Source: a phage. From it: a stretch of 42,822 bases of DNA. Positions within the stretch are counted from its first letter, which is position 1. Every line of letters begins with the position of its first letter. The stretch lies in NCBI GenBank assembly GCA_018167975.1, contig GCA_018167975.1_4333.1, one strand, 5' to 3'. Below, one piece after another: positions 5,757 through 37,071 of this stretch. The notes under the pieces are model-generated. The model saw only the letters and a list, made by a program, of their open reading frames with translations, had not been told where the DNA came from and ran no database searches. The translations under genes were made by a program, and so were the position numbers.

Positions 5757-8027
5757 ATGTCCGATGTAATTTTATCCTACTCGTGGTCTCGTCGCAACGC
5801 GCGGGCAGAGAAAAAGGATATAAACGTCAGAACAACACACACGGCAACACTGGACAACCTGAAAGAGTTAATCCAGCCGCTCGATGCCGTTCGTGACGGA
5901 ATTAACCCGAAGACCGCGCCGGGCTATATCACTGCCGCGTGCGATTCTACGCACAGCACCGTAAAAGACCCGGAAACCGGTGACTTTAAGCAAGCGCGTA
6001 AAGGCTTCTTCTATCGCTGTGATGCGTCTGTAAGCAAATCGTCGCTGGCGTACCTGGACTTCGACAGTGCAACGCCGGAAGAGTATCAGGAAGCGGTGCG
6101 CCTGGTTAAGCGCAGCCGCCGGGCGATGTGCCTCTACACCACGGCATCTCATACCGATGAGTCTCCACGCTTTCGCGTCGTCATGCCACTGGGCCGTCCT
6201 GTTGAAGGTGGTGACATCATCCGCATTCGTCATGGATTGCTGGAGCACTTCTTCGAAGGCATGGGTGCTGACCGCAGCGGGTTCACTCTGTCCCAGCCGA
6301 TGTACCTGCCGCCGGTTGGCTCTCAGGTTATCTGGTCGCGTCGCAATGACCTGATTGACCCGGACGAGTTACTGGAAGGCATCCCGGATTACGAGGTGAG
6401 CAGCGCGTCTGACTACCAGATACCGGAAGAACTGCGCACCTCGTTCACGGATGCGTTCGAAGCACTGGCGTTCGAGTACGGTGGCATCATGACGCCGCGT
6501 GGCCTTAAGATACCAGCTACGCCAGAACACGCAGAGAACTACAGCGACCCGACCCCGCGCCCGGACGACTTCCTGCTGTGTTTCCCGCGCGAGGGGTATG
6601 AAGCGCCGAACGTAACCATGATTCACGACACCGACATTACGGCAACAGAAGGCATGTCACCGAAAGAGGTGTGGAAGTATGCGTGTGATGCGACCGGTCT
6701 GCCGTTCAGTGAGGTCGCTGAGGCTATTGGCTGGGGCGCACGTGAATCTATTTCATGCAGTCTCGATGACCTGGAGGACGACGAGGACTCAGAGGTGGAC
6801 GAGTTACCTGAACCGGTAAAGGCTGATTTCGTCGTCGAGGGGTACATGCCGTCAGATTGTATCTGGGATATCGTCGGGGAATCCGGCACGTACAAATCAT
6901 TCTATACGCTGGGGATGATGTACCTTAGCGCCGCCGGATACCGGTTCGCGGGGGCCGATACCCAGCGTTGCCACCATTTCTATGTCGACGGTGAGGGTGG
7001 CGCTGCTACACGTACCCGTATTGATGCGCTCGCGGCTAAATATGGCGAGGAAGGTAAAGATTATGTACATGTCATTGATATGGGCGAAGTCGGAAAACTG
7101 AAAAACCTGATTAAGCTAATGCGCGAAACTGCGGGCGATGAACCAATCGGCATGGTTGCGTTCGACACCCTTAACCAGACGCTGGCCCTGACGATTGATA
7201 AGTTCGACGAGAACAGTTCATCAACGGCAATCGGTATGGGTAAAGTTATCGCCATCCTGAAAGAAGTACGCGACGCGACTAAAGCCGCGGTAGGCGTTGT
7301 GCACCACACACCGAAAGGCGGAAAGAAAGCCCGAGGTAGCGGCGCTCTGTATGCAGGCGTAGACGTTGAACTGACAATTGAACGTGCCACCGAACGTCAG
7401 ATAAACGTATACCACTCTAAATTTAAGCACGGGCCTCAACAGAAAACGGTTGGCATGGTGTTGGAGTCAGTACAGTTCCGCGAAGCCCCGCCACCGAAAG
7501 AGTACCGCGCGGTTGAGTTCCTCGGTAGCACAGAGGAATACGGCACAATCGTAAACCTCGACCTGCCGGAACCGCACAAGGCGCTTGTGCTGATGCCGTG
7601 GGGCTTCGAACCGTTCAAAACTGACGAGGAGAAAGAGCGGGAAGAAGGGCTGACAAAGGAAGGTAAAGCGGCCATTAAAGAAAAGGTAGGTCAGTTCGAG
7701 AAACTTGATACCAAAGAAGCTACGGTTATTTACGCATTGGGTAAATTGCAGGAGCAGGGTGACGACAAGCGAGGGTTTTCTATGTCAGCTATCGTCAAAG
7801 CCGCGAAAGAAGATAGTTACGGCGTACCAATTAACGCTAATAACGACCTTCGAAAGAAACTGGAAGAGATGCACGAGGCTGGGGTTATCGTCTCGGGTCT
7901 GGATAACAACAACAGACCTATCCCTAAGCAGTACCGGTTGCCGTGGGGTATAAACGACAACAAAATACCGAAGACAATATACGAACCGAATGAGATGTTA
8001 ACAGTGACAGAGGAGGATTTGGAATGA
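5757..8027 (+). CDS. Replication primase-helicase (primase-like N-terminal domain fused to a RecA-like/AAA_25 ATPase domain)
   Basis: 756 aa; N-terminal region with LAYLDFD...CLYTTASHTDESPRFRVVMPLG (prim-pol-like); C-terminal region with GESGTYKS (P-loop-like), VAFDTLNQ and VVHHTPKGG segments typical of RepA/DnaB-type RecA folds; GAAGGAAA RBS. Confidence 0.6.
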   Translation: MSDVILSYSWSRRNARAEKKDINVRTTHTATLDNLKELIQPLDAVRDGINPKTAPGYITAACDSTHSTVKDPETGDFKQARKGFFYRCDASVSKSSLAYLDFDSATPEEYQEAVRLVKRSRRAMCLYTTASHTDESPRFRVVMPLGRPVEGGDIIRIRHGLLEHFFEGMGADRSGFTLSQPMYLPPVGSQVIWSRRNDLIDPDELLEGIPDYEVSSASDYQIPEELRTSFTDAFEALAFEYGGIMTPRGLKIPATPEHAENYSDPTPRPDDFLLCFPREGYEAPNVTMIHDTDITATEGMSPKEVWKYACDATGLPFSEVAEAIGWGARESISCSLDDLEDDEDSEVDELPEPVKADFVVEGYMPSDCIWDIVGESGTYKSFYTLGMMYLSAAGYRFAGADTQRCHHFYVDGEGGAATRTRIDALAAKYGEEGKDYVHVIDMGEVGKLKNLIKLMRETAGDEPIGMVAFDTLNQTLALTIDKFDENSSSTAIGMGKVIAILKEVRDATKAAVGVVHHTPKGGKKARGSGALYAGVDVELTIERATERQINVYHSKFKHGPQQKTVGMVLESVQFREAPPPKEYRAVEFLGSTEEYGTIVNLDLPEPHKALVLMPWGFEPFKTDEEKEREEGLTKEGKAAIKEKVGQFEKLDTKEATVIYALGKLQEQGDDKRGFSMSAIVKAAKEDSYGVPINANNDLRKKLEEMHEAGVIVSGLDNNNRPIPKQYRLPWGINDNKIPKTIYEPNEMLTVTEEDLE

Positions 8028-8338
8028 ATATCTACGATTTTATAGATAACCCGTTTAAGGCAGTGAAGGCAGGATACCGCCCGTCATACCTGACATGTGT
8101 TTCCGCGGTAAGCGGCCACTGGTGGACTTTTTGGGTTTACACGGCGGGGATTTTTGCGGAGTTTAAAGACATTTTAGATATGACGCTGGCGGAGATTATA
8201 AAGTGCCTTTTCAAGTTGATTATCGCGATAGCTATTGTAATAAGTTTTCCTGTAAGTGTGTGGTTTCTGGCCTGGATTCAGTACCTGAACGTGCAACACA
8301 CGGTTAAGAATTTGGAAGAACTCGATAAGTTGAAATAA
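8024..8338 (+). CDS. Hypothetical membrane protein
   Basis: ATGA overlap with the primase-helicase stop; hydrophobic segments HWWTFWVYTAGIFA and LIIAIAIVISFPVSVWFLAWI. Confidence 0.5.
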   Translation: MNIYDFIDNPFKAVKAGYRPSYLTCVSAVSGHWWTFWVYTAGIFAEFKDILDMTLAEIIKCLFKLIIAIAIVISFPVSVWFLAWIQYLNVQHTVKNLEELDKLK

Positions 8339-8362
8339 AAAGAAAGGGGCGTTAAGCCCCTT
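8333..8362. terminator. Bidirectional hairpin terminator between convergent genes
   Basis: Stem AGGGGC (8345-8350) / GCCCCT (8356-8361), loop GTTAA; A-rich tract upstream on the plus strand gives a U-tract for the minus-strand (Cro-like gene) transcript. Confidence 0.5.
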
Positions 8363-8567
8363 CACCGAACGCCAGCCACTTGGCGTCTACTTCCAGCACT
8401 TCCGCCAGTTTAAACAGCGTCGCCGGGCGGACGTCCTGAGTTACTCCAAGTGCCAGCTGGTTAATTACGCCCTGGGAAACGCCAGCCAGGACAGCAAGAC
8501 GGCGCTGGGAGATGCCGAGTTCTTTACGACGTTGTTCTACACGGATGCCTAGTTCAGATGGTTGCAT
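8352..8567 (-). CDS. Cro/CI-type (XRE-family) HTH transcriptional regulator
   Basis: 71 aa; ELGISQRRLAVLAGVSQGVINQL is a canonical XRE HTH; AAGGAG RBS; divergently transcribed from the rightward early promoter at 8632-8661. Confidence 0.7.
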   Translation of the reverse strand: MQPSELGIRVEQRRKELGISQRRLAVLAGVSQGVINQLALGVTQDVRPATLFKLAEVLEVDAKWLAFGEGA

Positions 8568-8598
8568 GTCAATTACTCCTTAGTCAGTTGATATGTGA

Positions 8599-8627
8599 AT
8601 AGTACCATATTAATTATTTTAGAAAAG
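8599..8627 (-). promoter_or_regulatory. Candidate promoter of the Cro-like regulator gene (extended -10 TGGTACTAT, weak -35)
   Basis: rc of 8599-8607 = TGGTACTAT (TGn extended -10); spacer region carries a degenerate copy of the AATAG palindrome; back-to-back with the plus-strand promoter. Confidence 0.4.
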
Positions 8628-8631
8628 CCCA

Positions 8632-8661
8632 TTGACAACATGAATAGTTCGCTATTATAGT
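8632..8661 (+). promoter_or_regulatory. Sigma70-like promoter: -35 TTGACA, 18-bp spacer, -10 TATAGT, palindrome AATAGTTCGCTATT in spacer
   Basis: TTGACA 8632-8637, TATAGT 8656-8661; AATAG-N4-CTATT at 8643-8656; followed by GAGGAG RBS and the ATG at 8693. Confidence 0.6.
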
Positions 8662-8692: not shown

Positions 8693-9214
8693 ATGTTAGA
8701 CCAATTCTTAAAATTACTGGAACGTTTCGTAGTTGCACATGAACTGATTGCTGCGAATAGTGCGAAACCACAAAACAGTAAATCAGTAGGTGAATTGACG
8801 GTTGACGTCGCGGTAACGGGGGTAGAAACAGTTAAAAAAGAACTGGCTAAAGCACTTGAAGAAGTCGAGAAGGCGAAAGAAACCCCGGTGGAAGGCGAAG
8901 ACATCATCGACACTAAACCGGCAGAAGAAGAGAAGCCGAAACGCAAGCCGCGTAAAGCTAAAGTAGAGGAACCGATGCCAGAACCGGAAGAAGAGAAAGA
9001 AGAGGTCGATTATAAGTCTCTGCGTGACCAGATTCAGGCTATCGACGATGCGATTAACGAAGGGCCCAGCGATGCCGCGTGCGATGACTCTGATGAACTG
9101 CTGGAAGAGTTCACCGGCAAGAAGATGAAGATTGCCGCGATTAAAGACGAAGACCTGGCTGAATACTTGGAACGCCTGACAGCGATCAAGAACAAGTATT
9201 TCGAAGAAGAATAA
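8693..9214 (+). CDS. Hypothetical acidic protein (Glu/Lys-rich, coiled-coil-like)
   Basis: 173 aa, highly charged (EEEKPKRKPRKAKVEEPMPEPEEEKEE); GAGGAG RBS; no recognisable catalytic motif. Confidence 0.55.
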   Translation: MLDQFLKLLERFVVAHELIAANSAKPQNSKSVGELTVDVAVTGVETVKKELAKALEEVEKAKETPVEGEDIIDTKPAEEEKPKRKPRKAKVEEPMPEPEEEKEEVDYKSLRDQIQAIDDAINEGPSDAACDDSDELLEEFTGKKMKIAAIKDEDLAEYLERLTAIKNKYFEEE

Positions 9215-9257: not shown

Positions 9258-9530
9258 ATGATTTACCAACTCTACCGCGCTATCGACAGGCGAGATAACA
9301 CGGAGGCGTTGTGGCTGTTGCGCGCACCGTCCGGCGCGCACCAGATGGAAGAGATGGCGTACTTAGGCAGAGTACCGCGGCCTAAAGATATAGGCCGTCA
9401 CGTGTCGCAGATTAAGCGCACGACTTTCGCAAAACCTGACTTTTATGTCTTCGAGTCTATGTATAGCTGGGCTATGCACTGCGAACATAAGACTCGGCAT
9501 TTAATTGACCAGTGGGAGAACAGGGTATGA
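9258..9530 (+). CDS. Hypothetical protein
   Basis: ATG at 9258 with GAGGG RBS; 90 aa; no recognisable motif. Confidence 0.5.
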   Translation: MIYQLYRAIDRRDNTEALWLLRAPSGAHQMEEMAYLGRVPRPKDIGRHVSQIKRTTFAKPDFYVFESMYSWAMHCEHKTRHLIDQWENRV

Positions 9531-10768
9531 TTTTAAAGGAACGCGGCGGTAATAACGATGTACACGCCTTACTATCGCCATCTGGCGCTAAAAAATGGCT
9601 TAGCTGTGCTGCATCCCTGGCCTGTGAAAAAGATATTCCTAACACGTCCGGTAAATCAGCCGTTACCGGGACTGCGTGCCACACTATAGCTGAGGTCCAT
9701 CTGAACCAGTACATCAGAGGCACTGCGTTGCCGTTAGAGCGGGAAGTTGGCGCGTACGTACTGGATGAAGGTAAAGGCCAGATTAAGGCGCTAATTAGCC
9801 CGATGAAAGGCGCGGTACTGATTACGGCGGACATGATTGAGCAGGTGCGCAAGTACACAGACTATTGCAAAGAGATTATCGATGTAGCGACTTACGCCAA
9901 ACTGGAAATGCGTGTCAATCTTACTGAGGTATTGCATCCGGGGTATGAAGGCGTTGAGACGTTCGGAACCGCTGACCTTGTTGCCGTTCAGGAACTAGCC
10001 AACACCGACGAGCACATGCTAATCATCGGCGACCTGAAAACAGGACGACATCGTGTCGAAGCGAAAGAAAACAAGCAGCTTATGCTTTACGCTCTCGGTG
10101 TTTATCGCCGACTCAAGAGACGTTATAACATCACAGTTGTTCGCCTGGTCATCTTTCAGCCATACGCTGGCGGTGCATCGGAGTGGGACATCTCGGTTGA
10201 AGGTCTGGAACTGTTTGCTAAGTTCGCACAGAAACGTGCGCTGTTGGCTCTTGATGCGTATTTCCGTGGCAAGAAGAACCTGAAAGCGTCGGACTTCAGG
10301 CCATCTGTAGACGGTTGCCAGTGGTGCCGTTTCTCAGAACAATGCGCCGCGCGTACAAAAACAGTTAACTCTGTACTGGCGGAAGAACTTGAGGACGATT
10401 TTGCACTGGAACTGACGCCTGAGCAACTCGTATCTGAGTATGAGAAGTTGCCGCTGTTGCGCCAGCACATCGACAAGGTTGAAAAAGCTATGGCCGCCGC
10501 GTTGCATTCCGGTAAGAAAGTGCCGGGGTATAAGATGGTAGAAGGTCGCCCGGGTAATCGTGCGTGGAAAGACACGGAGAAAGTAGCAGAACTCTACGGC
10601 GACAAGCTGACTAAAGAAGTGCTCATGACGCCTACCGAAGCAGTTAAAGTAATACCGGAAGAAGAACTGAAAGACTTCATTACCCGTAAACCGGGAGCGC
10701 CATGCGTTACAACGACAGACGACAAACGTCCTGAGTGGAATCAGGTGACAGAGGAGGATTTAGAATGA
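9527..10768 (+). CDS. PD-(D/E)XK nuclease, Cas4/RecB-like exonuclease with 4-Cys Fe-S cluster motif
   Basis: ORF 9512..10768; ATG at 9527 (ATGA overlap, GGGAGAA RBS); catalytic-type motifs ADLVAV, IIGDLKTG, QLMLYAL; Cys in LSCAASLAC plus C-x2-C-x5-C (CQWCRFSEQC). Confidence 0.7.
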   Translation: MILKERGGNNDVHALLSPSGAKKWLSCAASLACEKDIPNTSGKSAVTGTACHTIAEVHLNQYIRGTALPLEREVGAYVLDEGKGQIKALISPMKGAVLITADMIEQVRKYTDYCKEIIDVATYAKLEMRVNLTEVLHPGYEGVETFGTADLVAVQELANTDEHMLIIGDLKTGRHRVEAKENKQLMLYALGVYRRLKRRYNITVVRLVIFQPYAGGASEWDISVEGLELFAKFAQKRALLALDAYFRGKKNLKASDFRPSVDGCQWCRFSEQCAARTKTVNSVLAEELEDDFALELTPEQLVSEYEKLPLLRQHIDKVEKAMAAALHSGKKVPGYKMVEGRPGNRAWKDTEKVAELYGDKLTKEVLMTPTEAVKVIPEEELKDFITRKPGAPCVTTTDDKRPEWNQVTEEDLE

Positions 10769-10923
10769 TTCGTAAAATTAAATATTGGGGGCTGGTTTCC
10801 CCTTTTATCGTAATAGGCGCGTTTACTTCGTCTATCGCGTGGGTAGACCGTAAACTTAGCGACAGTGAAACAATCGAGCGTTATTTTCTTTGGTGTGAGA
10901 AAGTTTCTAAAATTAAGCGTTGA
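10765..10923 (+). CDS. Small membrane protein (52 aa, 1 TM)
   Basis: ATGA overlap with the nuclease stop; GGAGG RBS embedded in the upstream coding sequence; hydrophobic WGLVSPFIVIGAFTSSIAW. Confidence 0.4.
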   Translation: MIRKIKYWGLVSPFIVIGAFTSSIAWVDRKLSDSETIERYFLWCEKVSKIKR

Positions 10924-10948
10924 CACCTGAATAGTTAGCTATTATAGT
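10920..10948 (+). promoter_or_regulatory. Sigma70-like promoter: -35 TTGACA, 17-bp spacer, -10 TATAGT, palindrome AATAGTTAGCTATT in spacer
   Basis: TTGACA 10920-10925, TATAGT 10943-10948; upstream of the SSB-like gene. Confidence 0.6.
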
Positions 10949-11006
10949 TCTAATCACTGGCCGGGCAGTTCCCGGAGTAAACGAAACTTAAAAGCGAGAA
11001 ATCAAG

Positions 11007-11633
11007 ATGGGTATTAAACTGAATCTGCGTAAAGTAAACACTGCATGGGTTAACGTATTCGAACGCGAAAAAGACCGTGAAAACGATGATGGCTCAATCA
11101 CTAAAGGTCAGTACAGCGCGACTATCATCCTGCCGTCTGACCACGCTCAAATAGACGCGCTTTACGACACTGTTTATGCTGTAGTTGAAGAAGCGTTGGG
11201 TGCAGCCGCTGCCGAGAAGTGGATGAAGTCCAACTACGGCGAAGGTAAGCACATGGATAAATGCGCGATTAAAGACATTGCCGAGCGCGACAATCCATTT
11301 GAAGACTTCCCGGAAGGCTTCTACTTCAAAGCGAAAGCGCAGAAACAGCCGCTGATTGTAACCTCTAAAAAAGGTGAGACTCAGGTGGAGCAGGACTTCA
11401 ATGTAGACGGAGAACAGATTGAAGGTGAACAGGTTTACAGCGGCTGCGTGGCCAACGTAAGCGTCGAAATCTGGTTTAGCCAGAAATACAAAGTCCTCGG
11501 CGTTAACCTGCTGGCCATTAAATACGTCGGCGAAGGTAAAGCGTTCGGTGGTTCTAAAGTCGCCGCAAGTGTCGATGACCTGGAAGACGACGAAGAAGAT
11601 GAAGCACCGCGCCGCGAACGTCGCCGTCGTTAA
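11007..11633 (+). CDS. Putative single-stranded DNA-binding protein (T7 gp2.5-like architecture, acidic C-terminal tail)
   Basis: 208 aa; C-terminal GVNLLAIKYVGEGKAFGGS followed by acidic DDLEDDEEDE tail, reminiscent of gp2.5-type SSBs; own promoter and terminator. Confidence 0.5.
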   Translation: MGIKLNLRKVNTAWVNVFEREKDRENDDGSITKGQYSATIILPSDHAQIDALYDTVYAVVEEALGAAAAEKWMKSNYGEGKHMDKCAIKDIAERDNPFEDFPEGFYFKAKAQKQPLIVTSKKGETQVEQDFNVDGEQIEGEQVYSGCVANVSVEIWFSQKYKVLGVNLLAIKYVGEGKAFGGSKVAASVDDLEDDEEDEAPRRERRRR

Positions 11634-11652
11634 TATCTGAATCAATTTAACT

Positions 11653-11677
11653 AAGGCCCTTCATTGGGCCTTTTTAC
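11653..11677 (+). terminator. Rho-independent terminator
   Basis: Stem AGGCCC (11654-11659) / GGGCCT (11666-11671), loop TTCATT, followed by TTTTT. Confidence 0.6.
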
Positions 11678-11687
11678 CGGAGTCAGA

Positions 11688-12161
11688 ATGGAACATATAA
11701 AAGATTTTCTTAGCTATAACCGAGAAACCGGAATATTCACATGGATACAACCTACGTACAGACGAGGGAAACCTGGAGACATTGCGGGATGCATTAATAG
11801 TAGCGGATACTGGCGCATACCTTATATGGGTAGATATTACATGGCCCACAGGCTTGCTTGGTTTTTCGAGTACGGTGAATGGCCTGAGGGGCCGCTTGAC
11901 CACATAAACCGTGACAGGTTAGACAATAGGATTTCTAACCTAAGGAAAGCAACCACCGCAGATAATGTGCGAAACGCTAAAAATAAGGGAGCTAGAACGG
12001 GAGTTAAGGGAGTAGTTAAAACCGGCAACCGATTTTATGGGCGGGTACATTTTAACTACAAAAGTTATAATGCGGGTAGCTACGGAACTCTTGAAGAAGC
12101 AGAAAGCGCTGTAAAGAAATTAAGAGAAAAACTGCATAAGGAATTTTATTGCCATGACTAG
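11688..12161 (+). CDS. HNH homing endonuclease (HNH_3 catalytic motif plus AP2-like DNA-binding domain)
   Basis: ORF 11664..12161; ATG at 11688 with GGAG RBS; AHRLAWFFEYGEWPEGPLDHINRDRLDNRISNLR (HNH) and GVKGVVKTGNRFYGRV...GTLEEAESA (AP2-like). Confidence 0.75.
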   Translation: MEHIKDFLSYNRETGIFTWIQPTYRRGKPGDIAGCINSSGYWRIPYMGRYYMAHRLAWFFEYGEWPEGPLDHINRDRLDNRISNLRKATTADNVRNAKNKGARTGVKGVVKTGNRFYGRVHFNYKSYNAGSYGTLEEAESAVKKLREKLHKEFYCHD

Positions 12162-14424
12162 TTTATTATACCTGGATACCGAGACATTCTCCGAAGCAGA
12201 CTTAAAGAAAGTCGGGTCGTATGCGTATGCGGAGCACCCAACGACAGAGGTTATAATTTGTACATATGCCGTTGATGACGGCCCTGTAGAAGTATGGGAT
12301 TGCACTTCCGAACCAGTAATGCCAATAAGCCTCCGCGTAGCGCTCCGTAATGTTATGCGTGGACGTATGAAAATCGTGGGCCATAACTTTTTAATGTTCG
12401 ATCGTCTAATCCTGAAACACTGCTGGGACTTTGATATCCCGGTAAGCAACACCATTGATACGATGATTTGGGCGTTTCGTCACGCGCTGCCAGGGTCACT
12501 TGATGCGCTGTGTGAAGTGCTTGGCGTGTCCGCTGATAATGCGAAAGACAAACGCGGCAAGGCGCTGATTCAGCGTTTCTCTAAACCGACACCGAAGAAC
12601 TATAAAATCCGCCGCTACACCGCCGAAACGCACCCGGACGAATGGGCGCTGTTCATCAAGTACGCCGTGAGCGACATCACAGCGATGCGTGAAGTCTTCC
12701 ATAAGCTGCCACGTTGGGGTAACTCCGATTTCGAGGACCGTGTACTTGAACTTGACCAGTTAATCAACGACCGAGGCTTTTTTGTTGATGCAGCTCTTGC
12801 TGAGGCAGCGGTAGCGGCAGTTGAACGCCACAAGCAAGAGCTAAAAAACGAGGCCCGCGCGAAATTCGGGGGGAAACTAACGGGCAAAGACTTCCTGCCA
12901 ATCCTTCGGGAGCTGGCACCGGCCTACAATATCTATAATGCGCAGAAAGCGACGCTCGAAGGTTTGTTAGAGGACGACGACTTGCCCGACGATGCGCGTA
13001 CAATCATTGAGATGCGCCTCGGCGCGGCCTCCACGGCGTCAACAAAATATAAGCCGCTCCTGTTAGGACGGTCCAAAGACGGACGACGCCGTGGTTGCAT
13101 CCAGTATGGCGGCGCGAAGCGCACTTTACGGTTTGCGGGTAAAGGGTTCCAGCCGCAGAACCTGTCGCGCGGGTACTACCACGACGACCCGACTAACGAG
13201 GAAAAGAAACTTGTACGCCAGCCGTGGGAGTCCGACGAAGACTGGAACCGCAGGCTTAACCCGCTATCATTTGGCATCAATTTGCTTTTAAAGGGTCGGG
13301 CGCATCGCCGTTTCGATGTATCTAAGCTGACAGCTTCAACTGTTCGCAGCTGCATCATCCCTGAAAAGGGTAATAAGTTGCTCGTTGCCGACTACTCAAA
13401 CGTGGAAGGGCGCGGGTTGGCCTGGGCCGCCGGGGAGACATCCGCGCTTGAGACCTTCCGAGCAGGGATTGATATCTATTGCGCCACCGCGGGCAAGATG
13501 TTTGGCATGGACCCCGTAGAGCTAAAAGCCACCCGTAAGGACCTACGTCAGGTCGGGAAATGTTGCGAACTCGGCCTCGGCTACGAGGGGGGCGTAGGGG
13601 CCTTTATGACTATGGCTAAAACTTACGGGCTGGACCTCTTTAAAATGACGGAGACAATGCGGGGCACGTTCCCTGATCACATTTGGGCGGCTACTGCCAG
13701 GGGCTATGAATGGGCGCGGATTCAGGAGGCTAAGAGACCCCCGAAACCCGGTAAAAAGGATGAACGGGCCTCTTATGTGCTGCCTAAAGAAGTCTGGCGC
13801 ACCTGCGATGCTATCAAGCGCATGTGGCGTGAGGCCCATCCAGAAACAGTGAAATTCTGGAACGACCTTAAGGATTCGGTAATTGCCGCAATCAGAAATC
13901 CGGGACGAGAGTTTTGGGCGGGGGCCAGAGTCCGCCTTAACGGCGACAGAGCTATTCGCATCTGGCGTACTAAAGAGAAAGATAGTCAGGGTAGATTTGT
14001 GCCGGGTTGGTGGTTGTGTGTAGAACTGCCGTCAGGGCGCGTCATGTCGTACCCCGGCATAGGTCTGAGCGTTACTAAAGAAACTGACGAGGATGGGCGC
14101 GTAACAACTAACGTTCGCATTAAGTACCAGGGCGAAAACCAGACCACCCGCCAGTGGACAACTTTGTACACACACGGCGGAAAATTGTGTGAAAACATCA
14201 TCCAGGCGTTGTGCCGTGATTTACTGGTTAACGGACTCCTGACGGTCGAGGCGGCGGGCTACCCAATTGTACTCCACGTACATGACGAATGTGTTGCCGA
14301 AACGCCAGACACGCCAGAGTACACGGTTAAAGAGATGGGTGACCTGCTATGCTCATTACCCGAATGGGCCGAAGGGTTCCCGTTAACATGGGCTGGGGAA
14401 GAGGTGTACCGTTATGCTAAGTAA
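12154..14424 (+). CDS. DNA polymerase, family A (Pol I-like) with 3'-5' exonuclease domain
   Basis: 756 aa; exo motifs YLDTETFS, HNFLMFD, YAVSDITAM; polymerase motifs DYSNVEGRGLAW (A), RKDLRQVGKCCELGLGYEGG (B), VLHVHDECV (C). Confidence 0.85.
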   Translation: MTSLLYLDTETFSEADLKKVGSYAYAEHPTTEVIICTYAVDDGPVEVWDCTSEPVMPISLRVALRNVMRGRMKIVGHNFLMFDRLILKHCWDFDIPVSNTIDTMIWAFRHALPGSLDALCEVLGVSADNAKDKRGKALIQRFSKPTPKNYKIRRYTAETHPDEWALFIKYAVSDITAMREVFHKLPRWGNSDFEDRVLELDQLINDRGFFVDAALAEAAVAAVERHKQELKNEARAKFGGKLTGKDFLPILRELAPAYNIYNAQKATLEGLLEDDDLPDDARTIIEMRLGAASTASTKYKPLLLGRSKDGRRRGCIQYGGAKRTLRFAGKGFQPQNLSRGYYHDDPTNEEKKLVRQPWESDEDWNRRLNPLSFGINLLLKGRAHRRFDVSKLTASTVRSCIIPEKGNKLLVADYSNVEGRGLAWAAGETSALETFRAGIDIYCATAGKMFGMDPVELKATRKDLRQVGKCCELGLGYEGGVGAFMTMAKTYGLDLFKMTETMRGTFPDHIWAATARGYEWARIQEAKRPPKPGKKDERASYVLPKEVWRTCDAIKRMWREAHPETVKFWNDLKDSVIAAIRNPGREFWAGARVRLNGDRAIRIWRTKEKDSQGRFVPGWWLCVELPSGRVMSYPGIGLSVTKETDEDGRVTTNVRIKYQGENQTTRQWTTLYTHGGKLCENIIQALCRDLLVNGLLTVEAAGYPIVLHVHDECVAETPDTPEYTVKEMGDLLCSLPEWAEGFPLTWAGEEVYRYAK

Positions 14425-14545
14425 ACTGATTATCGCAGTACTGGCGGGATTTGCCGCCGGTGTCTACTGTCACGAGGGCCAATACGGCATGATTGTAGCC
14501 GTATTAGGTATGTTCATCGCAATTTATCTGTGGGTGCTGGAATGA
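14414..14545 (+). CDS. Small hydrophobic peptide (43 aa, 2 TM-like segments)
   Basis: Below track cutoff; ATG at 14414 with GAAGAGGTG RBS; overlaps the polymerase stop; ends in an ATGA overlap with the next micro-ORF. Confidence 0.3.
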   Translation: MLSKLIIAVLAGFAAGVYCHEGQYGMIVAVLGMFIAIYLWVLE

Positions 14546-14631
14546 AAATCTACTGGTTCTATGAAGAAGATTGCCGAATCTGTCCGCGCTGCGGGATTGA
14601 GCATACGAAACGTGAGGGGTGCGTATTATGA
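14542..14631 (+). CDS. Micro-ORF (29 aa) with CxxC...C pattern
   Basis: ATGA-coupled at both ends (start 14542, stop 14629-14631); product MKIYWFYEEDCRICPRCGIEHTKREGCVL. Confidence 0.2.
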   Translation: MKIYWFYEEDCRICPRCGIEHTKREGCVL

Positions 14632-14780
14632 CAATGTTTGTATTTTGGACGATAGTAACCATGCTCGCACTGTTACTCGGCGCAGGAATAGCTGCGATGT
14701 TCTGTTATGGCCTGTTCTTTAAGTTTGTCGGCGTTGCCGTTTTGGGTGGGGTGTTTATAACTTGGGTTCTGCGCTCATGA
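14628..14780 (+). CDS. Small hydrophobic peptide (50 aa, 2 TM-like segments)
   Basis: Below track cutoff; ATGA overlaps at both ends link it to the flanking ORFs. Confidence 0.3.
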   Translation: MTMFVFWTIVTMLALLLGAGIAAMFCYGLFFKFVGVAVLGGVFITWVLRS

Positions 14781-15091
14781 CCCCGGAAGGCAAGATTCAG
14801 AAATACGCAAAAGAGCAATTCGAGGCCATTGGTGGCCTCGTTCGCAAGATGGCATTTGAAGGTCGGCGAGCCGCTATGGACCTCCTGGTAATTCTCCCCG
14901 GAGGCATCATCTGGTTCGTTGAGGTGAAGAAAGACGAAAATACGAAGCCGGAGCCACACCAGCTACGCGAGCATGAAAGATTCCGAAAACGTGGCGCGAA
15001 TGTTTTTGTCGTTGGTTCGTTTAAACAGGTTGACACCCTAATAGCAGACTATTATAGTAAACACATACCCCAACAATATAAGGAATTATAA
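14777..15091 (+). CDS. VRR-NUC domain nuclease (PD-(D/E)XK fold)
   Basis: ORF 14762..15091; ATG at 14777; DLLVILPGGIIWFVEVKK (D...E-V-K catalytic pattern) and the small size fit VRR-NUC. Confidence 0.55.
   Translation: MTPEGKIQKYAKEQFEAIGGLVRKMAFEGRRAAMDLLVILPGGIIWFVEVKKDENTKPEPHQLREHERFRKRGANVFVVGSFKQVDTLIADYYSKHIPQQYKEL
15030..15058 (+). promoter_or_regulatory. Sigma70-like promoter: -35 TTGACA, 17-bp spacer, -10 TATAGT, palindrome AATAGCAGACTATT in spacer
   Basis: TTGACA 15030-15035, TATAGT 15053-15058; lies inside the 3' end of the VRR-NUC gene, upstream of the 15093 gene. Confidence 0.55.
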
Positions 15092-15092
15092 A

Positions 15093-15347
15093 ATGGCTAT
15101 CGAACTTCAACTGTCGGTAAACACCATGATTATGGGCTCAATCGATTCATCTGTTCGCATCGGTAAATACACGGGTGCGTCGGTCAATTACTCATGGTCT
15201 ATGAAGGTTTCGGAAGTAAACCGTATTCTCGGTTTCGGGTCAGTTGGTCGCAAGGTGCTTGCGGAAGACGTCGCTAAAGGGCTGTCTGTAGATTTCACAA
15301 CGGCTGGAGAACTTATTAAGCAAGTTCAAGCCGAATTATCTAACTAA
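15093..15347 (+). CDS. Hypothetical protein
   Basis: ATG with AAGGAA RBS; 84 aa. Confidence 0.5.
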   Translation: MAIELQLSVNTMIMGSIDSSVRIGKYTGASVNYSWSMKVSEVNRILGFGSVGRKVLAEDVAKGLSVDFTTAGELIKQVQAELSN

Positions 15348-15349
15348 TA

Positions 15350-15372
15350 CAGGCCCTTCGGGGCCTTAACTA
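15350..15372 (+). terminator. Hairpin (weak terminator/attenuator or RNA-stability element)
   Basis: AGGCCC-TTCG-GGGCCT at 15351-15366 followed by TAACTAT (poor U-tract). Confidence 0.3.
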
Positions 15373-15386
15373 TAAGGAATTGAGAA

Positions 15387-15578
15387 ATGAAACACGAATA
15401 TGACCGCAAGCCAGCACGTGACATCGTACCGGGCGACATGATTTTCAACGTTAAGACACGCCAACCTGTCGCCGTTGATACGGTGTTCGTAGAGTCGAAC
15501 GGTAAACTGGTTATCGAAGACGTAACAGGTAACGTTACGGCGTTCGGGCGTAAAGAGCTGGTTCTGGTGGCAAAATGA
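15387..15578 (+). CDS. Hypothetical protein
   Basis: ATG at 15387 with AAGGAA RBS; 63 aa. Confidence 0.5.
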   Translation: MKHEYDRKPARDIVPGDMIFNVKTRQPVAVDTVFVESNGKLVIEDVTGNVTAFGRKELVLVAK

Positions 15579-16999
15579 GTAAGTTTCAAAGGCGCGAATA
15601 CCAGAAGCTTATGACTTCGTTCATGCTGCAACACCCTCGCTGTAATATCTGGTGCGGTATGGGCGGCGGCAAGACCTCGTCGACAATGTGGGTGCTTAAC
15701 CGACTGTTCCGCAACGGTCAACTTAATGATGACGACCGCGTGTTAATCCTCGCCCCGCTGCGCGTTGCGTCGGGTACGTGGCCCGCAGAACAAGAGAAAT
15801 GGCAATTCCCATGTCTGAGCGTCGTCGATGCAACTGGTTCAGAAAAGCGCCGCATCGCGGCGCTGGAGTCTGACGCTAACGTGGTGTGCACGAACTACGA
15901 AGTTATCGAGTGGCTGATTGACTACTACGGCAAAGACGACTGGCCTTTTACGGTTATCGTCGCGGATGAAAGCACGAAGCTTAAATCCTTCCGCAGCCGT
16001 TCTGGTGGAAGCAAGCGGGCGAAGGCGCTTAGTAAAGTGGCATTCGGTAAGGTTAAGCGTTTTATCAACCTTACTGGCACCCCGTCGCCAAATGGCCTCA
16101 AAGACTTGTGGGGTCAGAACTGGTTTATCGACGCGGGCGAGCGCCTGGGGTCGTCGTACACGGCATTCACCGACCGCTGGTTTAACTCGGTACAGAAAGG
16201 TAAATCCGCGATGGCGCGGGAGTATCACGCTCGCCCGGGAGCGGATACCGAGATTCACCAGAAGATGAAGGACATTAGTCTAACGATTGATGCTGCCGAG
16301 TGGTTTGGATGTGAAGCGCCGATTATCGTCCCTGTTGAAATTGACCTGCCGAAGAAAGCGCGTCAGGCGTACATCGATATGGAGGAGAAGCTATTCGCAG
16401 AACTGGAAAGCGGGGAAGTTGAGGCGGCTAACGCTGCGGCGAAGACGTCGAAGTGCTTGCAGATTGCATCTGGTGCCGTGTATGTGTCAGGGCCAGACGG
16501 CGAAGCGACCAAAGACTGGGAGAAAGTGCACGACACGAAACTGGACGCACTGGAGTCCATTGTTGAGGAATTGCAGGGTGCGCCGTTACTGGTGGCCTAC
16601 CAGTTCAAGCATGAGCTTGAGCGCATCCTGAAACGATTCCCGCAGGCACAGGCGTTCGCCAAAGGTGCTAAGGGTAATAAACAGATGGAAGCGTGGAACA
16701 GAGGTGAAATCGAAATATTATGCGTTCATCCTGCGTCAGCCGGGCATGGTTTGAATTTACAGGACGGCGGGCATCATCTGGCGTTTATTTCGCAAGGCTG
16801 GAACCTTGAGCATTATTTACAGGTTGTAGAACGCATAGGGCCCGTTCGTCAGAAACAGGCCGGTCACGAGCGCCCGGTGTTCCTCTATCACATCGTCGCT
16901 AAAGACACGCTGGATGAGGTTGTTTCCGCGCGTACAGACGAGAAGAAATCAGTACAGGAAGAGTTGCTTAATTACATGAAGAGACGAGGTAAGAAATGA
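15575..16999 (+). CDS. SNF2/Rad54-family helicase (DEAD-like helicase N and C domains)
   Basis: 474 aa; Walker A GMGGGKTS, DExx box VIVADESTK, motif III NLTGTPSPN, C-terminal helicase block HPASAGHGLNLQDGGHHLAF...QVVERIGPVRQ. Confidence 0.8.
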   Translation: MSKFQRREYQKLMTSFMLQHPRCNIWCGMGGGKTSSTMWVLNRLFRNGQLNDDDRVLILAPLRVASGTWPAEQEKWQFPCLSVVDATGSEKRRIAALESDANVVCTNYEVIEWLIDYYGKDDWPFTVIVADESTKLKSFRSRSGGSKRAKALSKVAFGKVKRFINLTGTPSPNGLKDLWGQNWFIDAGERLGSSYTAFTDRWFNSVQKGKSAMAREYHARPGADTEIHQKMKDISLTIDAAEWFGCEAPIIVPVEIDLPKKARQAYIDMEEKLFAELESGEVEAANAAAKTSKCLQIASGAVYVSGPDGEATKDWEKVHDTKLDALESIVEELQGAPLLVAYQFKHELERILKRFPQAQAFAKGAKGNKQMEAWNRGEIEILCVHPASAGHGLNLQDGGHHLAFISQGWNLEHYLQVVERIGPVRQKQAGHERPVFLYHIVAKDTLDEVVSARTDEKKSVQEELLNYMKRRGKK

Positions 17000-35106: not shown

Positions 35107-35158
35107 TATTCCGACATTTACAATTGAGGGTAATAACTGGAATACGTAAACAAATAGT

Positions 35159-35187
35159 TTGCACACCCCAACATAATAGGGTACTAT
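35159..35187 (+). promoter_or_regulatory. Sigma70-like promoter: -35 TTGCAC, 17-bp spacer, -10 TACTAT, palindrome AATAGGGTACTATT
   Basis: TTGCAC 35159-35164, TACTAT 35182-35187; near-identical to the promoters at 26106 and 4831 (rc). Confidence 0.6.
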
Positions 35188-35221
35188 TCATTACATCGAA
35201 ACGAGAGATAAGGAATTTAGA

Positions 35222-36973: not shown

Positions 36974-37017
36974 ATGCCCTCCTATAGTACCGCCAGTGTA
37001 ACGCATAAAAATAGTAT

Positions 37018-37046
37018 TTGCAGGCACCAATATAATAGGGTACTAT
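37018..37046 (+). promoter_or_regulatory. Sigma70-like promoter: -35 TTGCAG, 17-bp spacer, -10 TACTAT, palindrome AATAGGGTACTATT
   Basis: TTGCAG 37018-37023, TACTAT 37041-37046; followed by CAGGAGGG RBS and the ATG at 37072. Confidence 0.55.
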
Positions 37047-37071
37047 TCAGTTAACTTAAACAGGAGGGTGT

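What the first reader, a model, noticed from the sequence alone, without database searches (positions are those of the whole stretch)
8004..8027. Duplicated 24-nt coupling junction GTGACAGAGGAGGATTTRGAATGA at two gene boundaries
The primase-helicase gene (ending 8027) and the Cas4-like nuclease gene (ending 10768) both end with the same sequence (8004-8027 and 10745-10768, 23/24 identical). Both proteins therefore terminate in VTEEDLE, and each junction provides an embedded GGAGG RBS plus an ATGA overlap that starts a small membrane-protein gene (8024 and 10765). The repeat looks like a portable translational-coupling cassette and implies the two downstream membrane peptides are co-regulated with DNA-metabolism enzymes.
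Basis: seen in the sequence. Interest (0 to 1): 0.45.

Follow-up and report, generated by a model that had tools for sequence, protein, structure and literature searches.

The report
Shared acidic tail on two replication enzymes
The duplicated 24-base junction is real, but it is not a mobile cassette: two phage DNA-replication enzymes end in the same conserved acidic seven-residue peptide, and its Glu codons also serve as the ribosome-binding site for a small overlapping gene.

Summary
The 24-mers at 8004-8027 and 10745-10768 are 23/24 identical, with none expected by chance, and both encode ...VTEEDLE*.

The window is a Kagunavirus-like (K1G group) phage. The tail is a conserved protein feature:
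- Both the helicase-primase and the Cas4-like DUF2800 nuclease keep [VA][TS][DE][DE]DL at the C-terminus down to about 30-45% identity, with different codons.
- 71% of 123 diverse DUF2800 nucleases end in an acidic tail.
- In divergent phages (Scapp, Chi-like, SAP11, Bacteroides and others) the nuclease tail mimics the tail of the same phage's primase and/or gp2.5-type SSB (permutation tests: 0/20,000 and p=0.003).

The RBS and ATGA reading does hold. At the nuclease junction GGAGG is present in 22/22 genomes with an overlapping downstream gene and 0/25 without.

The downstream genes are interchangeable, site-specific accessory inserts, or absent. No family is shared between the two sites. All 30 matches in the viral collection lie at these same two gene ends.

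Best explanation: a T7 gp4/gp2.5-like docking tail (inferred) whose codons are also used for translational coupling.

This is a new member of a known kind, of modest interest.

The parts
5757..8027 (+). Replicative helicase-primase gene (756 aa), ending ...EPNEMLTVTEEDLE*
   Evidence: ORF list; Pfam AAA_25 at 8e-18; PHROG 3228 at 5e-301
6759..6787 (+). Internal acidic motif SLDDLEDDE in the primase-helicase interdomain linker. It is 26/29 nt identical to the SSB tail segment at 11568-11596.
   Evidence: Repeat family D8; motif scan; the linker motif C[ST][DE]xDL is conserved in Jerseyvirus, L067 and L081
8004..8027 (+). Tail copy 1: codons for VTEEDLE plus the stop. GGAGG at 8012-8016, 7-nt spacer, ATG at 8024-8026 overlapping TGA at 8025-8027.
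   Evidence: the peptide is conserved in relatives with different codons
8024..8338 (+). ORF104, a small hydrophobic accessory protein (PHROG 2638, unknown function) and the last gene of the helicase operon. It is present in only some relatives, and other phages carry unrelated genes or nothing here.
   Evidence: annotated with a 4-nt overlap in EC3-1
8343..8363 (.). GC-rich hairpin terminator. This is the fixed right-hand boundary of the variable slot after the helicase-primase gene.
   Evidence: Terminator scan; the AAAGGGGC..GCCCC anchor is conserved in relatives with and without an insert
8632..8661 (+). Sigma-70-like promoter (11/12 match) of the operon ORF173-ORF90-nuclease-ORF52
   Evidence: repeat family D2
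9527..10768 (+). Cas4/AddB-like PD-(D/E)XK nuclease (DUF2800), 413 aa from ATG 9527 (the open frame starts at GTG 9512), ending ...KRPEWNQVTEEDLE*
   Evidence: Pfam DUF2800 at 1.9e-68; relatives are 413 aa; AF2 pLDDT 93 with Foldseek hits to AdnA, MGME1 and Cas4
10745..10768 (+). Tail copy 2: codons for VTEEDLE plus the stop. GGAGG at 10753-10757, 7-nt spacer, ATG at 10765-10767 overlapping TGA at 10766-10768.
10765..10923 (+). ORF52, a small protein with one marginally hydrophobic segment. Its stop codon lies inside the -35 box of the next promoter. Longer, strongly hydrophobic relatives (68-83 aa) occupy the same slot in other clades.
10920..10948 (+). Sigma-70-like promoter (11/12 match) of the SSB-HNH-PolA operon. 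This is the fixed right-hand boundary of the variable slot after the nuclease gene.
11007..11633 (+). T7 gp2.5-type SSB/annealing protein (DUF2815/Enc34 family). Its tail ...SVDDLEDDEEDEAPRRERRRR* carries the same DDLE core at 11568-11596.
   Evidence: Pfam PF10991 at 8e-16; PHROG 112; tail conservation
12154..14424 (+). Family A DNA polymerase with no acidic tail (ends RYAK*). By analogy with T7 it is a candidate receptor for the tails; this is an inference.
   Evidence: Pfam DNA_pol_A; C-termini

Best explanation
The 24-nt repeat is the DNA footprint of one short acidic peptide motif at the extreme C-terminus of two enzymes of the phage replication/recombination module: the helicase-primase and the Cas4-like DUF2800 nuclease. 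The motif is [VA][TS][DE][DE]DL, here VTEEDLE.

Shown:
- The peptide is conserved at both gene ends in relatives as distant as 30-45% identity, with different codons.
- The motif flavour changes from lineage to lineage, but it stays matched between the nuclease and the same phage's primase/helicase and/or gp2.5-type SSB.
- In this phage the motif occurs four times: in the helicase linker, at the helicase C-terminus, at the nuclease C-terminus and in the SSB tail.
- Where an accessory gene has been slotted in directly behind the stop codon, the two Glu codons are GAG-GAG and the last codon plus stop reads GAATGA.
- The slots are bounded by the stop codon on the left and by a terminator (helicase site) or a promoter (nuclease site) on the right. 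They hold different unrelated small genes, or none, in different phages.

Inferred:
- The tail is a docking peptide for a common partner. The most likely partner is the module's family A polymerase or the DNA-binding groove of the gp2.5-type SSB. This would work like the acidic C-terminal tails of T7 gp4 and gp2.5.
- GAGGAGG acts as a Shine-Dalgarno sequence 7 nt before an ATG that overlaps the stop, which couples translation of the small gene to that of the enzyme.

Identical peptide plus identical SD and overlap constraints account for most of the 23/24 identity.

The confidence of 0.78 is for the overall reading: a coding constraint plus ordinary translational coupling, and not a cassette. 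For the trans-docking step alone I would give about 0.5.
For: Peptide-level conservation:
- Across 74 related loci, the helicase ends read VTEEDLE, TTEGDLE, ASDEDLNS, ATDDDLKD or ATDDDLAD. The nuclease ends read VTEEDLE, VSEEDLE, VTEDDLEA, ASDEDLS, ATDEDLSNE or ATDEDLE.
- Among 123 diverse DUF2800 representatives, 71% have net charge of -3 or lower in the last 12 aa, against 12% of internal windows. 64% carry an acidic-plus-hydrophobic motif, against 10.6%.

Tails match within genomes in divergent phages:
- Scapp: primase EEFEELE*, nuclease SDFENLE*.
- Chi-like SeZq-1: primase FDDEDEV*, nuclease WDDEDDDEV*, SSB WEDEV*, SNF2 helicase WDDEE*.
- SAP11: nuclease AEDDFDKL*, SSB AEDDFDEL...
- Bacuni_F1: VirE primase NDEDDL*, SSB DDDDL*.

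Permutation tests:
- Nuclease against primase tails across 11 lineages: same-genome sum 210, permuted mean 135 +/- 18, 0 of 20,000 permutations as high.
- Nuclease against SSB tails across 13 lineages: 251 against 202 +/- 16.5, p=0.003.

Selection on the peptide, not DNA copying: in six divergent lineages, identical tail residues share codons at chance level (13/32 observed, 14.4 expected).

SD function: GGAGG is present in 22/22 nuclease junctions with an overlapping gene and 0/25 without (Fisher 7e-14). At the helicase junction the counts are 13/16 and 14/31 (p=0.03).

Variable slots.

Only two contexts: 30 of 30 viral-collection matches are helicase-primase or nuclease ends.

Precedent:
- Acidic tails of T7 gp4 bind basic patches on gp5 (PMC12593628).
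- The gp2.5/Enc34-type SSB tail mediates protein contacts and lies in a neighbour's groove (PMC5686142).
- duf2800-gp2.5-polA is a recognised conserved module (PMC8093625).
Against: - No binding partner was tested. The docking role rests on analogy and on co-variation.
- The AF2 model of the nuclease does not predict a disordered tail (pLDDT 88-92, short helix at 409-412). The tail may therefore pack in cis.
- The primase tail is absent or unmatched in some lineages (KcrB, Dante). Primase against SSB tails is not significant (p=0.81).
- In distant clades the SSB tail lacks the DL core.
- Lineages are few and partly related, and the Fisher tests are not phylogenetically corrected.
- In this window codon sharing is higher than expected (7/8 against 3.3; 4/5 after removing the SD- and overlap-constrained codons, p about 0.05). 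The D8 pair shows the same excess (6/8 against 3.5). Some DNA-level copying therefore cannot be excluded.
- At the helicase site GGAGG persists in 14 genomes that lack a downstream gene.
Confidence: 0.78

Rival explanations
1. Portable translational-coupling cassette. The 24-mer would be a mobile regulatory module that travels with, or captures, small membrane-protein genes and plugs them behind DNA-metabolism genes.
For: - Both copies have SD plus ATGA in front of small genes.
- The last 7 codons are linked to the presence or absence of the insert at the nuclease site: allele GTNACAGAGGAGGATTTRGAATGA with a gene, allele GTTAGTGAAGAAGATTTRGAATAA without.
- In L023 an inserted gene is flanked by both alleles of the tail (14/15 nt, p<0.0005).
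Against: - The peptide is conserved without any downstream gene and in distant homologues with different codons.
- No downstream gene family occurs at both sites.
- All 30 viral-collection matches are at the same two gene ends.
- A tail remnant at the right end of the insert is significant in only 1 of 12 insert families.
- Tight linkage between the tail allele and the insert is expected anyway, because the two are 0 bp apart.
- ATGA overlaps are common in the genome.
Confidence: 0.05
2. Intragenomic DNA copying. The two tails (and the D8 pair) would be kept alike by gene conversion or short-homology recombination between sites 2.7 kb apart, catalysed by the phage's own nuclease and annealing protein. 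Independent selection on each copy would not be needed.
For: - Codon identity at shared residues in the window is 7/8 against 3.3 expected.
- The D8 pair shows 6/8 against 3.5, and the Jerseyvirus tails 4/5 against 2.0.
- L020 has GTA at the Val codon in both tails, whereas most helicase tails have GTG.
Against: - Three of the 7 matching codons are fixed by the SD and ATGA constraints. The remainder (4/5) is only borderline (p about 0.05).
- Six divergent lineages share tail peptides with chance-level codon identity (13/32 against 14.4; for example Ser AGT against TCC in the 53% clade).
- Among 9 genomes with both ATGA-type tails, the Val third positions do not co-vary significantly.
- In many genomes the two tails differ at 7-8 of 24 nt.
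Confidence: 0.15
3. Cis-acting structural or autoinhibitory tail. The acidic C-terminus would fold back on its own enzyme, for example as a DNA mimic in a basic DNA-binding groove. It would not be a trans docking peptide. Similarity between proteins would only reflect a common requirement for acidic residues.
For: - The AF2 model gives the nuclease tail pLDDT 88-92 and a short helix at 409-412, only about 5 residues after the nearly invariant D-K-R-P motif.
- gp2.5-type SSB tails are known to occupy the DNA-binding groove (PMC5686142).
Against: - A generic acidity requirement does not explain lineage-specific sequence matching between nuclease, primase and SSB tails (EEFEELE/SDFENLE; AEDDFDKL/AEDDFDEL; VTEEDLE/VTEEDLE), which beat cross-genome pairings.
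- The retron IX preprint describes the C-terminal region of a DUF2800 homologue as predicted disordered (bioRxiv 10.64898/2026.07.14.737667).
- Cis docking and trans docking are not mutually exclusive; T7 gp2.5 does both.
Confidence: 0.2
4. Chance coincidence of two unrelated gene ends.
For: None beyond the short length of the repeat.
Against: - 0.00 matches are expected in shuffles, even with 3 mismatches allowed.
- The peptide is conserved at both sites across clades.
Confidence: 0.01

Closest known systems
Acidic C-terminal tails of bacteriophage T7 gp4 (helicase-primase) and gp2.5 (SSB), which dock on basic patches of the gp5 polymerase
   Same: - Extreme C-terminal, acidic, short motif with a hydrophobic residue.
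- Shared by the helicase-primase and the SSB of one phage.
- The SSB here belongs to the same structural family as gp2.5 (DUF2815/Enc34).
- The module polymerase is family A, like gp5.
(PMC12593628, PMC5686142)
   Different: - The motif is also carried by a Cas4-like DUF2800 nuclease, which T7 lacks.
- The hydrophobic residue is Leu followed by Glu in this lineage, not a terminal Phe. Other lineages use Phe or Trp.
- The SSB continues with a basic PRRERRRR end.
- A further copy sits in the helicase-primase linker.
- No binding data exist.
- AF2 does not predict the nuclease tail to be disordered.
Bacterial SSB C-terminal tip (E. coli ...DDDIPF) as an interaction hub for many genome-maintenance proteins (own knowledge)
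   Same: An acidic-plus-hydrophobic C-terminal peptide used as a common address in DNA metabolism.
   Different: In E. coli one protein carries the peptide and many clients carry pockets for it. Here several proteins carry the same peptide, which implies one shared receptor or competition for it.
Translational coupling through overlapping stop/start codons (ATGA) with the Shine-Dalgarno sequence inside the upstream gene (own knowledge; widespread in bacterial and phage operons)
   Same: 4-nt ATGA overlap. GGAGG lies 7 nt upstream within the coding sequence. The downstream genes are small and are the last genes of their operons.
   Different: Mechanistically nothing unusual. The only particular point is that the SD is built from the Glu-Glu codons of a conserved peptide motif, and that synonymous choice (GAGGAG against GAAGAA) tracks the presence of the downstream gene.
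Phage morons and mosaic accessory-gene slots at operon ends (own knowledge)
   Same: A variable slot bounded by conserved sequence holds unrelated small genes or nothing (at least 5 families after the helicase and at least 6 after the nuclease).
   Different: Classical morons bring their own promoter and terminator. These inserts have neither. They rely on the upstream gene's transcript and on an SD encoded in its tail.

Membership tests
T7-type acidic C-terminal docking tails of replisome proteins | Short acidic motif at the extreme C-terminus of a replication protein | tested here: met
   VTEEDLE* ends both the helicase-primase and the nuclease. 71% of 123 DUF2800 representatives have net charge of -3 or lower in the last 12 aa, against 12% of internal windows.
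T7-type acidic C-terminal docking tails of replisome proteins | The same motif is shared by different replisome proteins of one phage (in T7: gp4 and gp2.5) | tested here: met
   Same-genome tail matching: nuclease against primase, 0 of 20,000 permutations as high; nuclease against SSB, p=0.003. Primase against SSB is not significant.
T7-type acidic C-terminal docking tails of replisome proteins | C-terminal aromatic residue (Phe in T7) that is critical for binding | tested here: inconclusive
   This lineage has Leu-Glu at the end. Other lineages have Phe or Trp within the motif (DDFDKL, WDDEDDDEV, SDFENLE). No functional test was possible.
T7-type acidic C-terminal docking tails of replisome proteins | Tail is flexible or disordered in the free protein | tested here: not met
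   The AF2 model of the nuclease gives pLDDT 88-92 and a helix at 409-412 for the tail. This is a prediction only, and the helicase tail was not modelled.
T7-type acidic C-terminal docking tails of replisome proteins | Tail binds a basic patch on the DNA polymerase (or the SSB groove) in trans | not testable with these tools
   No multimer prediction or binding assay was available.
Translationally coupled overlapping gene pair | Stop and start codons overlap (ATGA) | tested here: met
   8024-8027 and 10765-10768. The same overlaps are annotated in EC3-1.
Translationally coupled overlapping gene pair | Shine-Dalgarno sequence at functional spacing inside the upstream gene, under selection | tested here: met
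   GGAGG lies 7 nt upstream of the ATG. At the nuclease site it is present in 22/22 genomes with a downstream gene and 0/25 without.
Translationally coupled overlapping gene pair | Downstream ORF is a real gene | tested here: met
   The ORF104 family occurs in 7 loci with its 104-aa length kept and matches PHROG 2638 (1e-31). The ORF52 family occurs in 6 loci.
Translationally coupled overlapping gene pair | Downstream translation depends on upstream translation | not testable with these tools
   Needs reporter fusions or ribosome profiling.
Mobile or portable sequence cassette | The same boundary sequence occurs at different, unrelated genomic contexts | tested here: not met
   All 30 matches to GTNACNGAGGAGGATTTRGAATGA in the viral collection are helicase-primase ends (12) or nuclease ends (18).
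Mobile or portable sequence cassette | Related cargo is carried at the different sites | tested here: not met
   No blastp hit at E<=1e-3 between genes downstream of the helicase and genes downstream of the nuclease. The best permissive hit has E=0.23.
DUF2800 / Cas4-AddB-like PD-(D/E)XK nuclease | Family profile match, four-Cys motif and nuclease fold | tested here: met
   Pfam PF10926 at 1.9e-68 and PDDEXK_1 at 9e-9. Invariant C27, C264, C267 and C273. Foldseek hits to AdnA, MGME1, Dna2 and Cas4.
gp2.5/Enc34-type SSB (DUF2815) | Family profile match and an acidic C-terminal segment | tested here: met
   PF10991 at 8e-16. PHROG 112, 'Gp2.5-like ssDNA binding and annealing protein', at 2e-42. 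Tail SVDDLEDDEEDE....

The most novel reading that the evidence does not exclude
In the widespread duf2800-gp2.5-polA phage replication module, the Cas4-like nuclease, the primase/helicase and the SSB carry a lineage-specific, co-evolving acidic 'address' peptide. This peptide would recruit them all to one receptor, either the polymerase or the SSB groove. The recombination nuclease would then be a client of the replisome in the same way that gp4 and gp2.5 are in T7. Because the motif is built from Glu and Asp codons, it also supplies a ready-made ribosome-binding site, so the 3' ends of these genes would become preferred landing pads for small accessory (often membrane) genes.
Probability: 0.4. 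Interest if true: 0.5.

Novelty: new member of a known kind. Interest (0 to 1): 0.33.

Why it matters
The duplicated junction itself is an ordinary by-product and should not be catalogued as a mobile regulatory element.

What it points to is more useful. A short tail motif is shared, in lineage-specific versions, by the nuclease, the primase/helicase and the SSB of a replication module found in phages of Proteobacteria, Firmicutes, Bacteroidetes and Actinobacteria. This gives a concrete, cheap hypothesis about how the poorly understood DUF2800 nuclease is tied to the replisome or the SSB, testable by tail deletions, tail swaps and peptide pull-downs. That nuclease was recently reported as the trigger of retron type IX.

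The case also illustrates that conserved acidic tails can double as ribosome-binding sites, with synonymous codons tuned to whether a downstream gene is present. That is relevant to gene calling and to interpreting synonymous conservation at gene ends.

Tried and rejected
- The search for homologous proteins with the nuclease returned only relatives of 95-97% identity, which were useless for deep conservation. I replaced it with the 50%-clustered representative search.
- The search for related loci with two divergent representatives (P0126, P0129) found nothing in the viral collection. I replaced it with tblastn against the annotated phage collection.
The best cross-site E-value is 0.23.
- The idea that inserts are generally flanked by a duplicated tail: only L023 is significant (14/15 nt). 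The other 11 insert families are not.
- The idea that shared tails are generally DNA copies: rejected for six divergent lineages (13/32 codons against 14.4 expected). It is left open as a minor contributor in the Kagunavirus and Jerseyvirus clade.
- Co-variation of the Val third position between the two tails in 9 genomes is not significant.
- The strict motif [DE][DE]DL[DE] matched only the two tails. The relaxed [DE]DL[DE] added only the helicase linker and the SSB tail, and nothing else in 19,092 residues of long open frames.
- A PDB sequence search with the nuclease gave no hit.
- The coordinates of the AF2 model are not exposed, so I could not examine what the tail contacts in cis.
- I did not use the second structure job, the metagenome or genome scans, or PADLOC. 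None would have changed the verdict.
Full report
**Observation.** They are 23/24 identical, and the single difference is a synonymous Leu codon. With up to three mismatches allowed, they are the only matches in the window, against none expected in shuffles. The similarity does not extend beyond the 24 nt (family D9). Each 24-mer is the last seven codons plus the stop of a long ORF, so both proteins end in VTEEDLE*. In each copy, GGAGG lies 7 nt before an ATG that overlaps the TGA stop.

**Context.**
- The window is a Kagunavirus-like siphophage, about 90% identical to K1G, K1H and EC3-1. A total of 447 phage records match it, mostly Escherichia and Salmonella Guernseyvirinae.
- ORF 5757-8027 is the replicative helicase-primase (AAA_25; PHROG 3228).
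- ORF 9527-10768 is a DUF2800 PD-(D/E)XK nuclease (Pfam 1.9e-68). It has four invariant cysteines, and a confident AF2 model (pLDDT 93) resembles AdnA, AddB, MGME1, Dna2 and Cas4.
- Downstream lie a T7 gp2.5/Enc34-type SSB (11007-11633), an HNH endonuclease and a family A polymerase. This is the duf2800-gp2.5-polA module described in PMC8093625.
- Strong sigma-70-like promoters sit at 8632-8661 and 10920-10948, and a hairpin terminator at 8343-8363. ORF104 (8024-8338) and ORF52 (10765-10923) are therefore each the last gene of a transcription unit.

**The tail is a protein feature.** I fetched 74 related loci spanning 44-96% nuclease identity and read both gene ends in each.
- Both ends keep the same kind of C-terminus in every clade, with freely varying codons.
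  - Helicase-primase: VTEEDLE, TTEGDLE, ASDEDLNS, ATDDDLKD, ATDDDLAD.
  - Nuclease: VTEEDLE, VSEEDLE, VTEDDLEA, ASDEDLS, ATDEDLSNE, ATDEDLE.
- Many close relatives keep the peptide but have no overlapping gene.
  - The helicase gene then ends GAATAG and runs straight into the terminator.
  - The nuclease gene then ends GTTAGTGAAGAAGATTTGGAATAA and runs straight into the promoter.
- In 150 representatives of the wider DUF2800 family (29-59% identity), the region after the near-invariant D-K-R-P motif is a short linker followed by an acidic-plus-hydrophobic motif (...DDFEDL, ...DEDL, ...DDDLxD).
  - 71% of 123 full-length representatives have net charge of -3 or lower in the last 12 residues, against 12% of internal windows.
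  - 64% carry the motif, against 10.6% of internal windows.

**Tails match within genomes.** I read the replication proteins of divergent phages from the annotated phage collection.
- The motif flavour differs between lineages but is shared within each genome:
  - Scapp: primase EEFEELE*, nuclease SDFENLE*.
  - Chi-like SeZq-1: primase FDDEDEV*, nuclease WDDEDDDEV*, SSB WEDEV*, SNF2 helicase WDDEE*.
  - SAP11: nuclease AEDDFDKL*, SSB AEDDFDEL...
  - Dante: nuclease LEQEFAN..., SSB LEDEFAD...
  - Bacuni_F1: nuclease DDFKNIE*, SSB SDFGDID...DDDDL*, primase NDEDDL*.
  - LuckyBarnes: nuclease AAADFSQAG*, SSB AEADFADF...
- Permutation tests confirm that same-genome pairs score higher than cross-genome pairs.
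  - Nuclease against primase/helicase, 11 lineages: 210 against 135 +/- 18, with 0 of 20,000 permutations as high.
  - Nuclease against SSB, 13 lineages: 251 against 202 +/- 16.5, p=0.003.
  - Primase against SSB is not significant.
- In the window the core [DE]DL[DE] occurs only four times in all long open frames, and all four are in this module:
  - the helicase-primase linker (6765-6776);
  - the helicase-primase C-terminus;
  - the nuclease C-terminus;
  - the SSB tail (11574-11585).
- The linker copy is conserved across clades: CSLDDLEDDE, CDEEDLADEE, CTDADLDN, CTDFDLENE.

**Peptide selection or DNA copying?**
- At identical tail residues, six divergent lineages share codons at chance level: 13/32 observed against 14.4 expected. 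One example is Ser AGT against TCC. The sharing is therefore generally maintained at the peptide level.
- In the window 7 of 8 codons agree, against 3.3 expected. Three of them are dictated by the SD (GAG GAG) and by the overlap (GAA-TGA). The remaining 4/5 is borderline.
- The D8 pair (26/29 nt; 6/8 codons against 3.5 expected) shows a similar mild excess at a place with no gene junction.
- Occasional gene conversion in this clade cannot be excluded, but it is not required.

**The RBS and coupling part holds.**
- At the nuclease junction in the Kagunavirus and Jerseyvirus clade, GGAGG is present in 22/22 genomes with an overlapping downstream gene and 0/25 without (Fisher 7e-14).
- The same contrast appears independently in Jerseyvirus: GAGGAGGAT with a gene, GAAGACGAT without.
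- At the helicase junction the counts are 13/16 and 14/31 (p=0.03).
- These counts are not phylogenetically corrected.
- The small genes are real:
  - ORF104 has seven 104-aa homologues, including a divergent one, and matches PHROG 2638.
  - ORF52 has six homologues.
  - EC3-1 annotates both slots with 4-nt overlaps.
- ORF104 is clearly hydrophobic (Kyte-Doolittle 2.61 at residues 65-83). ORF52 is marginal (1.72).
- In other clades the nuclease slot holds strongly hydrophobic proteins of 68-83 aa (MIRK...ITGWKG; MIIKLF...ITGVKV; MNKVFAILL...). An overlapping small membrane gene behind the nuclease is therefore old.

**Not a cassette.**
- The slots hold at least five unrelated families behind the helicase and at least six behind the nuclease, or nothing at all. 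No family occurs at both sites.
- The inserts are bounded precisely by the stop codon and by the terminator or the promoter.
- A relaxed 24-mer pattern finds 30 matches in 2.9 million viral contigs. Twelve are helicase-primase ends and 18 are nuclease ends. No match lies anywhere else.
- ATGA overlaps are common in this genome; a mechanical scan finds 18.
- One locus, L023, has an inserted gene flanked by both tail alleles, which is a recombination scar. This is not general.

**Mechanism.**
- Shown:
  - the conserved shared peptide;
  - its co-variation within genomes;
  - SD codon tuning;
  - the variable slots.
- Inferred: the tail is a docking peptide for a common partner.
  - The basis is the analogy with T7. 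There the acidic C-terminal tails of gp4 bind basic patches on the family A polymerase gp5 (PMC12593628).
  - The gp2.5 tail contacts both the polymerase and the helicase. In the Enc34 homologue it lies in a neighbour's groove (PMC5686142).
- Against a simple floppy-tail picture:
  - AF2 predicts the nuclease tail with pLDDT 88-92 and a short helix.
  - I could not inspect the contacts.
  - A preprint on a DUF2800 homologue that triggers retron IX describes a predicted disordered C-terminal region. It also shows that the nuclease is dispensable in phage Bas14 (bioRxiv 10.64898/2026.07.14.737667).

**Verdict.**
- The 24-nt identity is the joint result of two constraints. One is a conserved acidic C-terminal peptide shared by two replication enzymes. 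The other is the pair of identical SD and ATGA constraints imposed by the small genes that follow them.
- It is a new member of a known kind (T7-like acidic docking tails and ordinary translational coupling), and of modest interest.
- The main value is the testable hypothesis that the DUF2800 nuclease, the primase/helicase and the SSB of this widespread module share one receptor.

Noticed in passing
window 6759-6787 and 11568-11596: A second near-identical DNA pair (26/29 nt) encodes SLDDLEDDE in the helicase-primase interdomain linker and SVDDLEDDE in the SSB tail. Codon agreement is 6/8 against 3.5 expected. The linker motif C[ST][DE]xDL is conserved in clades as distant as 30% identity.
   Followed up: partly
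window 11568-11633 (SSB C-terminus): The gp2.5-type SSB tail is acidic and then strongly basic (...DDLEDDEEDEAPRRERRRR*). In more distant clades it becomes alternating acidic and basic blocks (for example RDEDDEDEEEEERPRRRRR*). This is unusual for SSB tails, which normally end acidic or aromatic.
   Followed up: partly
L023 7219-7421: A 60-aa gene inserted behind the nuclease is flanked on the left by the GAGGAGGATTTAGAATGA tail and on the right by a remnant of the 'no-insert' tail, GAAGAAGATTTAGAATAA (14/15 nt, p<0.0005). The small protein itself therefore ends ...KEDLE*. This is a recombination scar, and it was seen in only 1 of 12 insert families.
   Followed up: yes
window 11664-12161: An HNH endonuclease gene sits between the SSB and polymerase genes and overlaps the polymerase start by 8 nt. 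Many close relatives' DNA matches stop at about 11678, which suggests a mobile homing-endonuclease insertion that is present in only some relatives.
   Followed up: no
window 8632-8661 and 10920-10948; also 26085-26154, 35138-35207, 36997-37066: Repeated promoter-like elements. Two are near-identical TTGACAcCTGAATAGTTaGCTATTATAGT promoters in the replication region. A separate 70-nt family shares the core TTGCACACCCCAACATAATAGGGTACTATTCA. There are also families of GGCCCC...GGGGCC terminator hairpins (17318, 27935, 35438, 37314).
   Followed up: no
window 9512-9530: The longest nuclease ORF starts at GTG 9512, but relatives are annotated from ATG 9527 (413 aa). That start forms another ATGA overlap with the stop of ORF90 (9258-9530). 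A mechanical scan finds 18 ATGA overlaps in the window.
   Followed up: partly
window 8693-9214: ORF173 (PHROG 3127, unknown function), the first gene of the nuclease operon, is very acidic and ends ...KNKYFEEE*. In Chi-like SeZq-1, the gene upstream of the nuclease (gp21) ends ...EEDDV*, matching that phage's tail flavour. It may be a further carrier of the tail motif.
   Followed up: no
L101 (Salmonella phage SeZq-1), genes at 6068-8653(-), 9974-11311, 11366-11962, 14404-15879: In this Chi-like phage four replication proteins (primase, DUF2800 nuclease, SSB and SNF2 helicase) all end in [FW]D[DE]E...E[VE]*. This is the clearest example of tail sharing across a whole module.
   Followed up: partly
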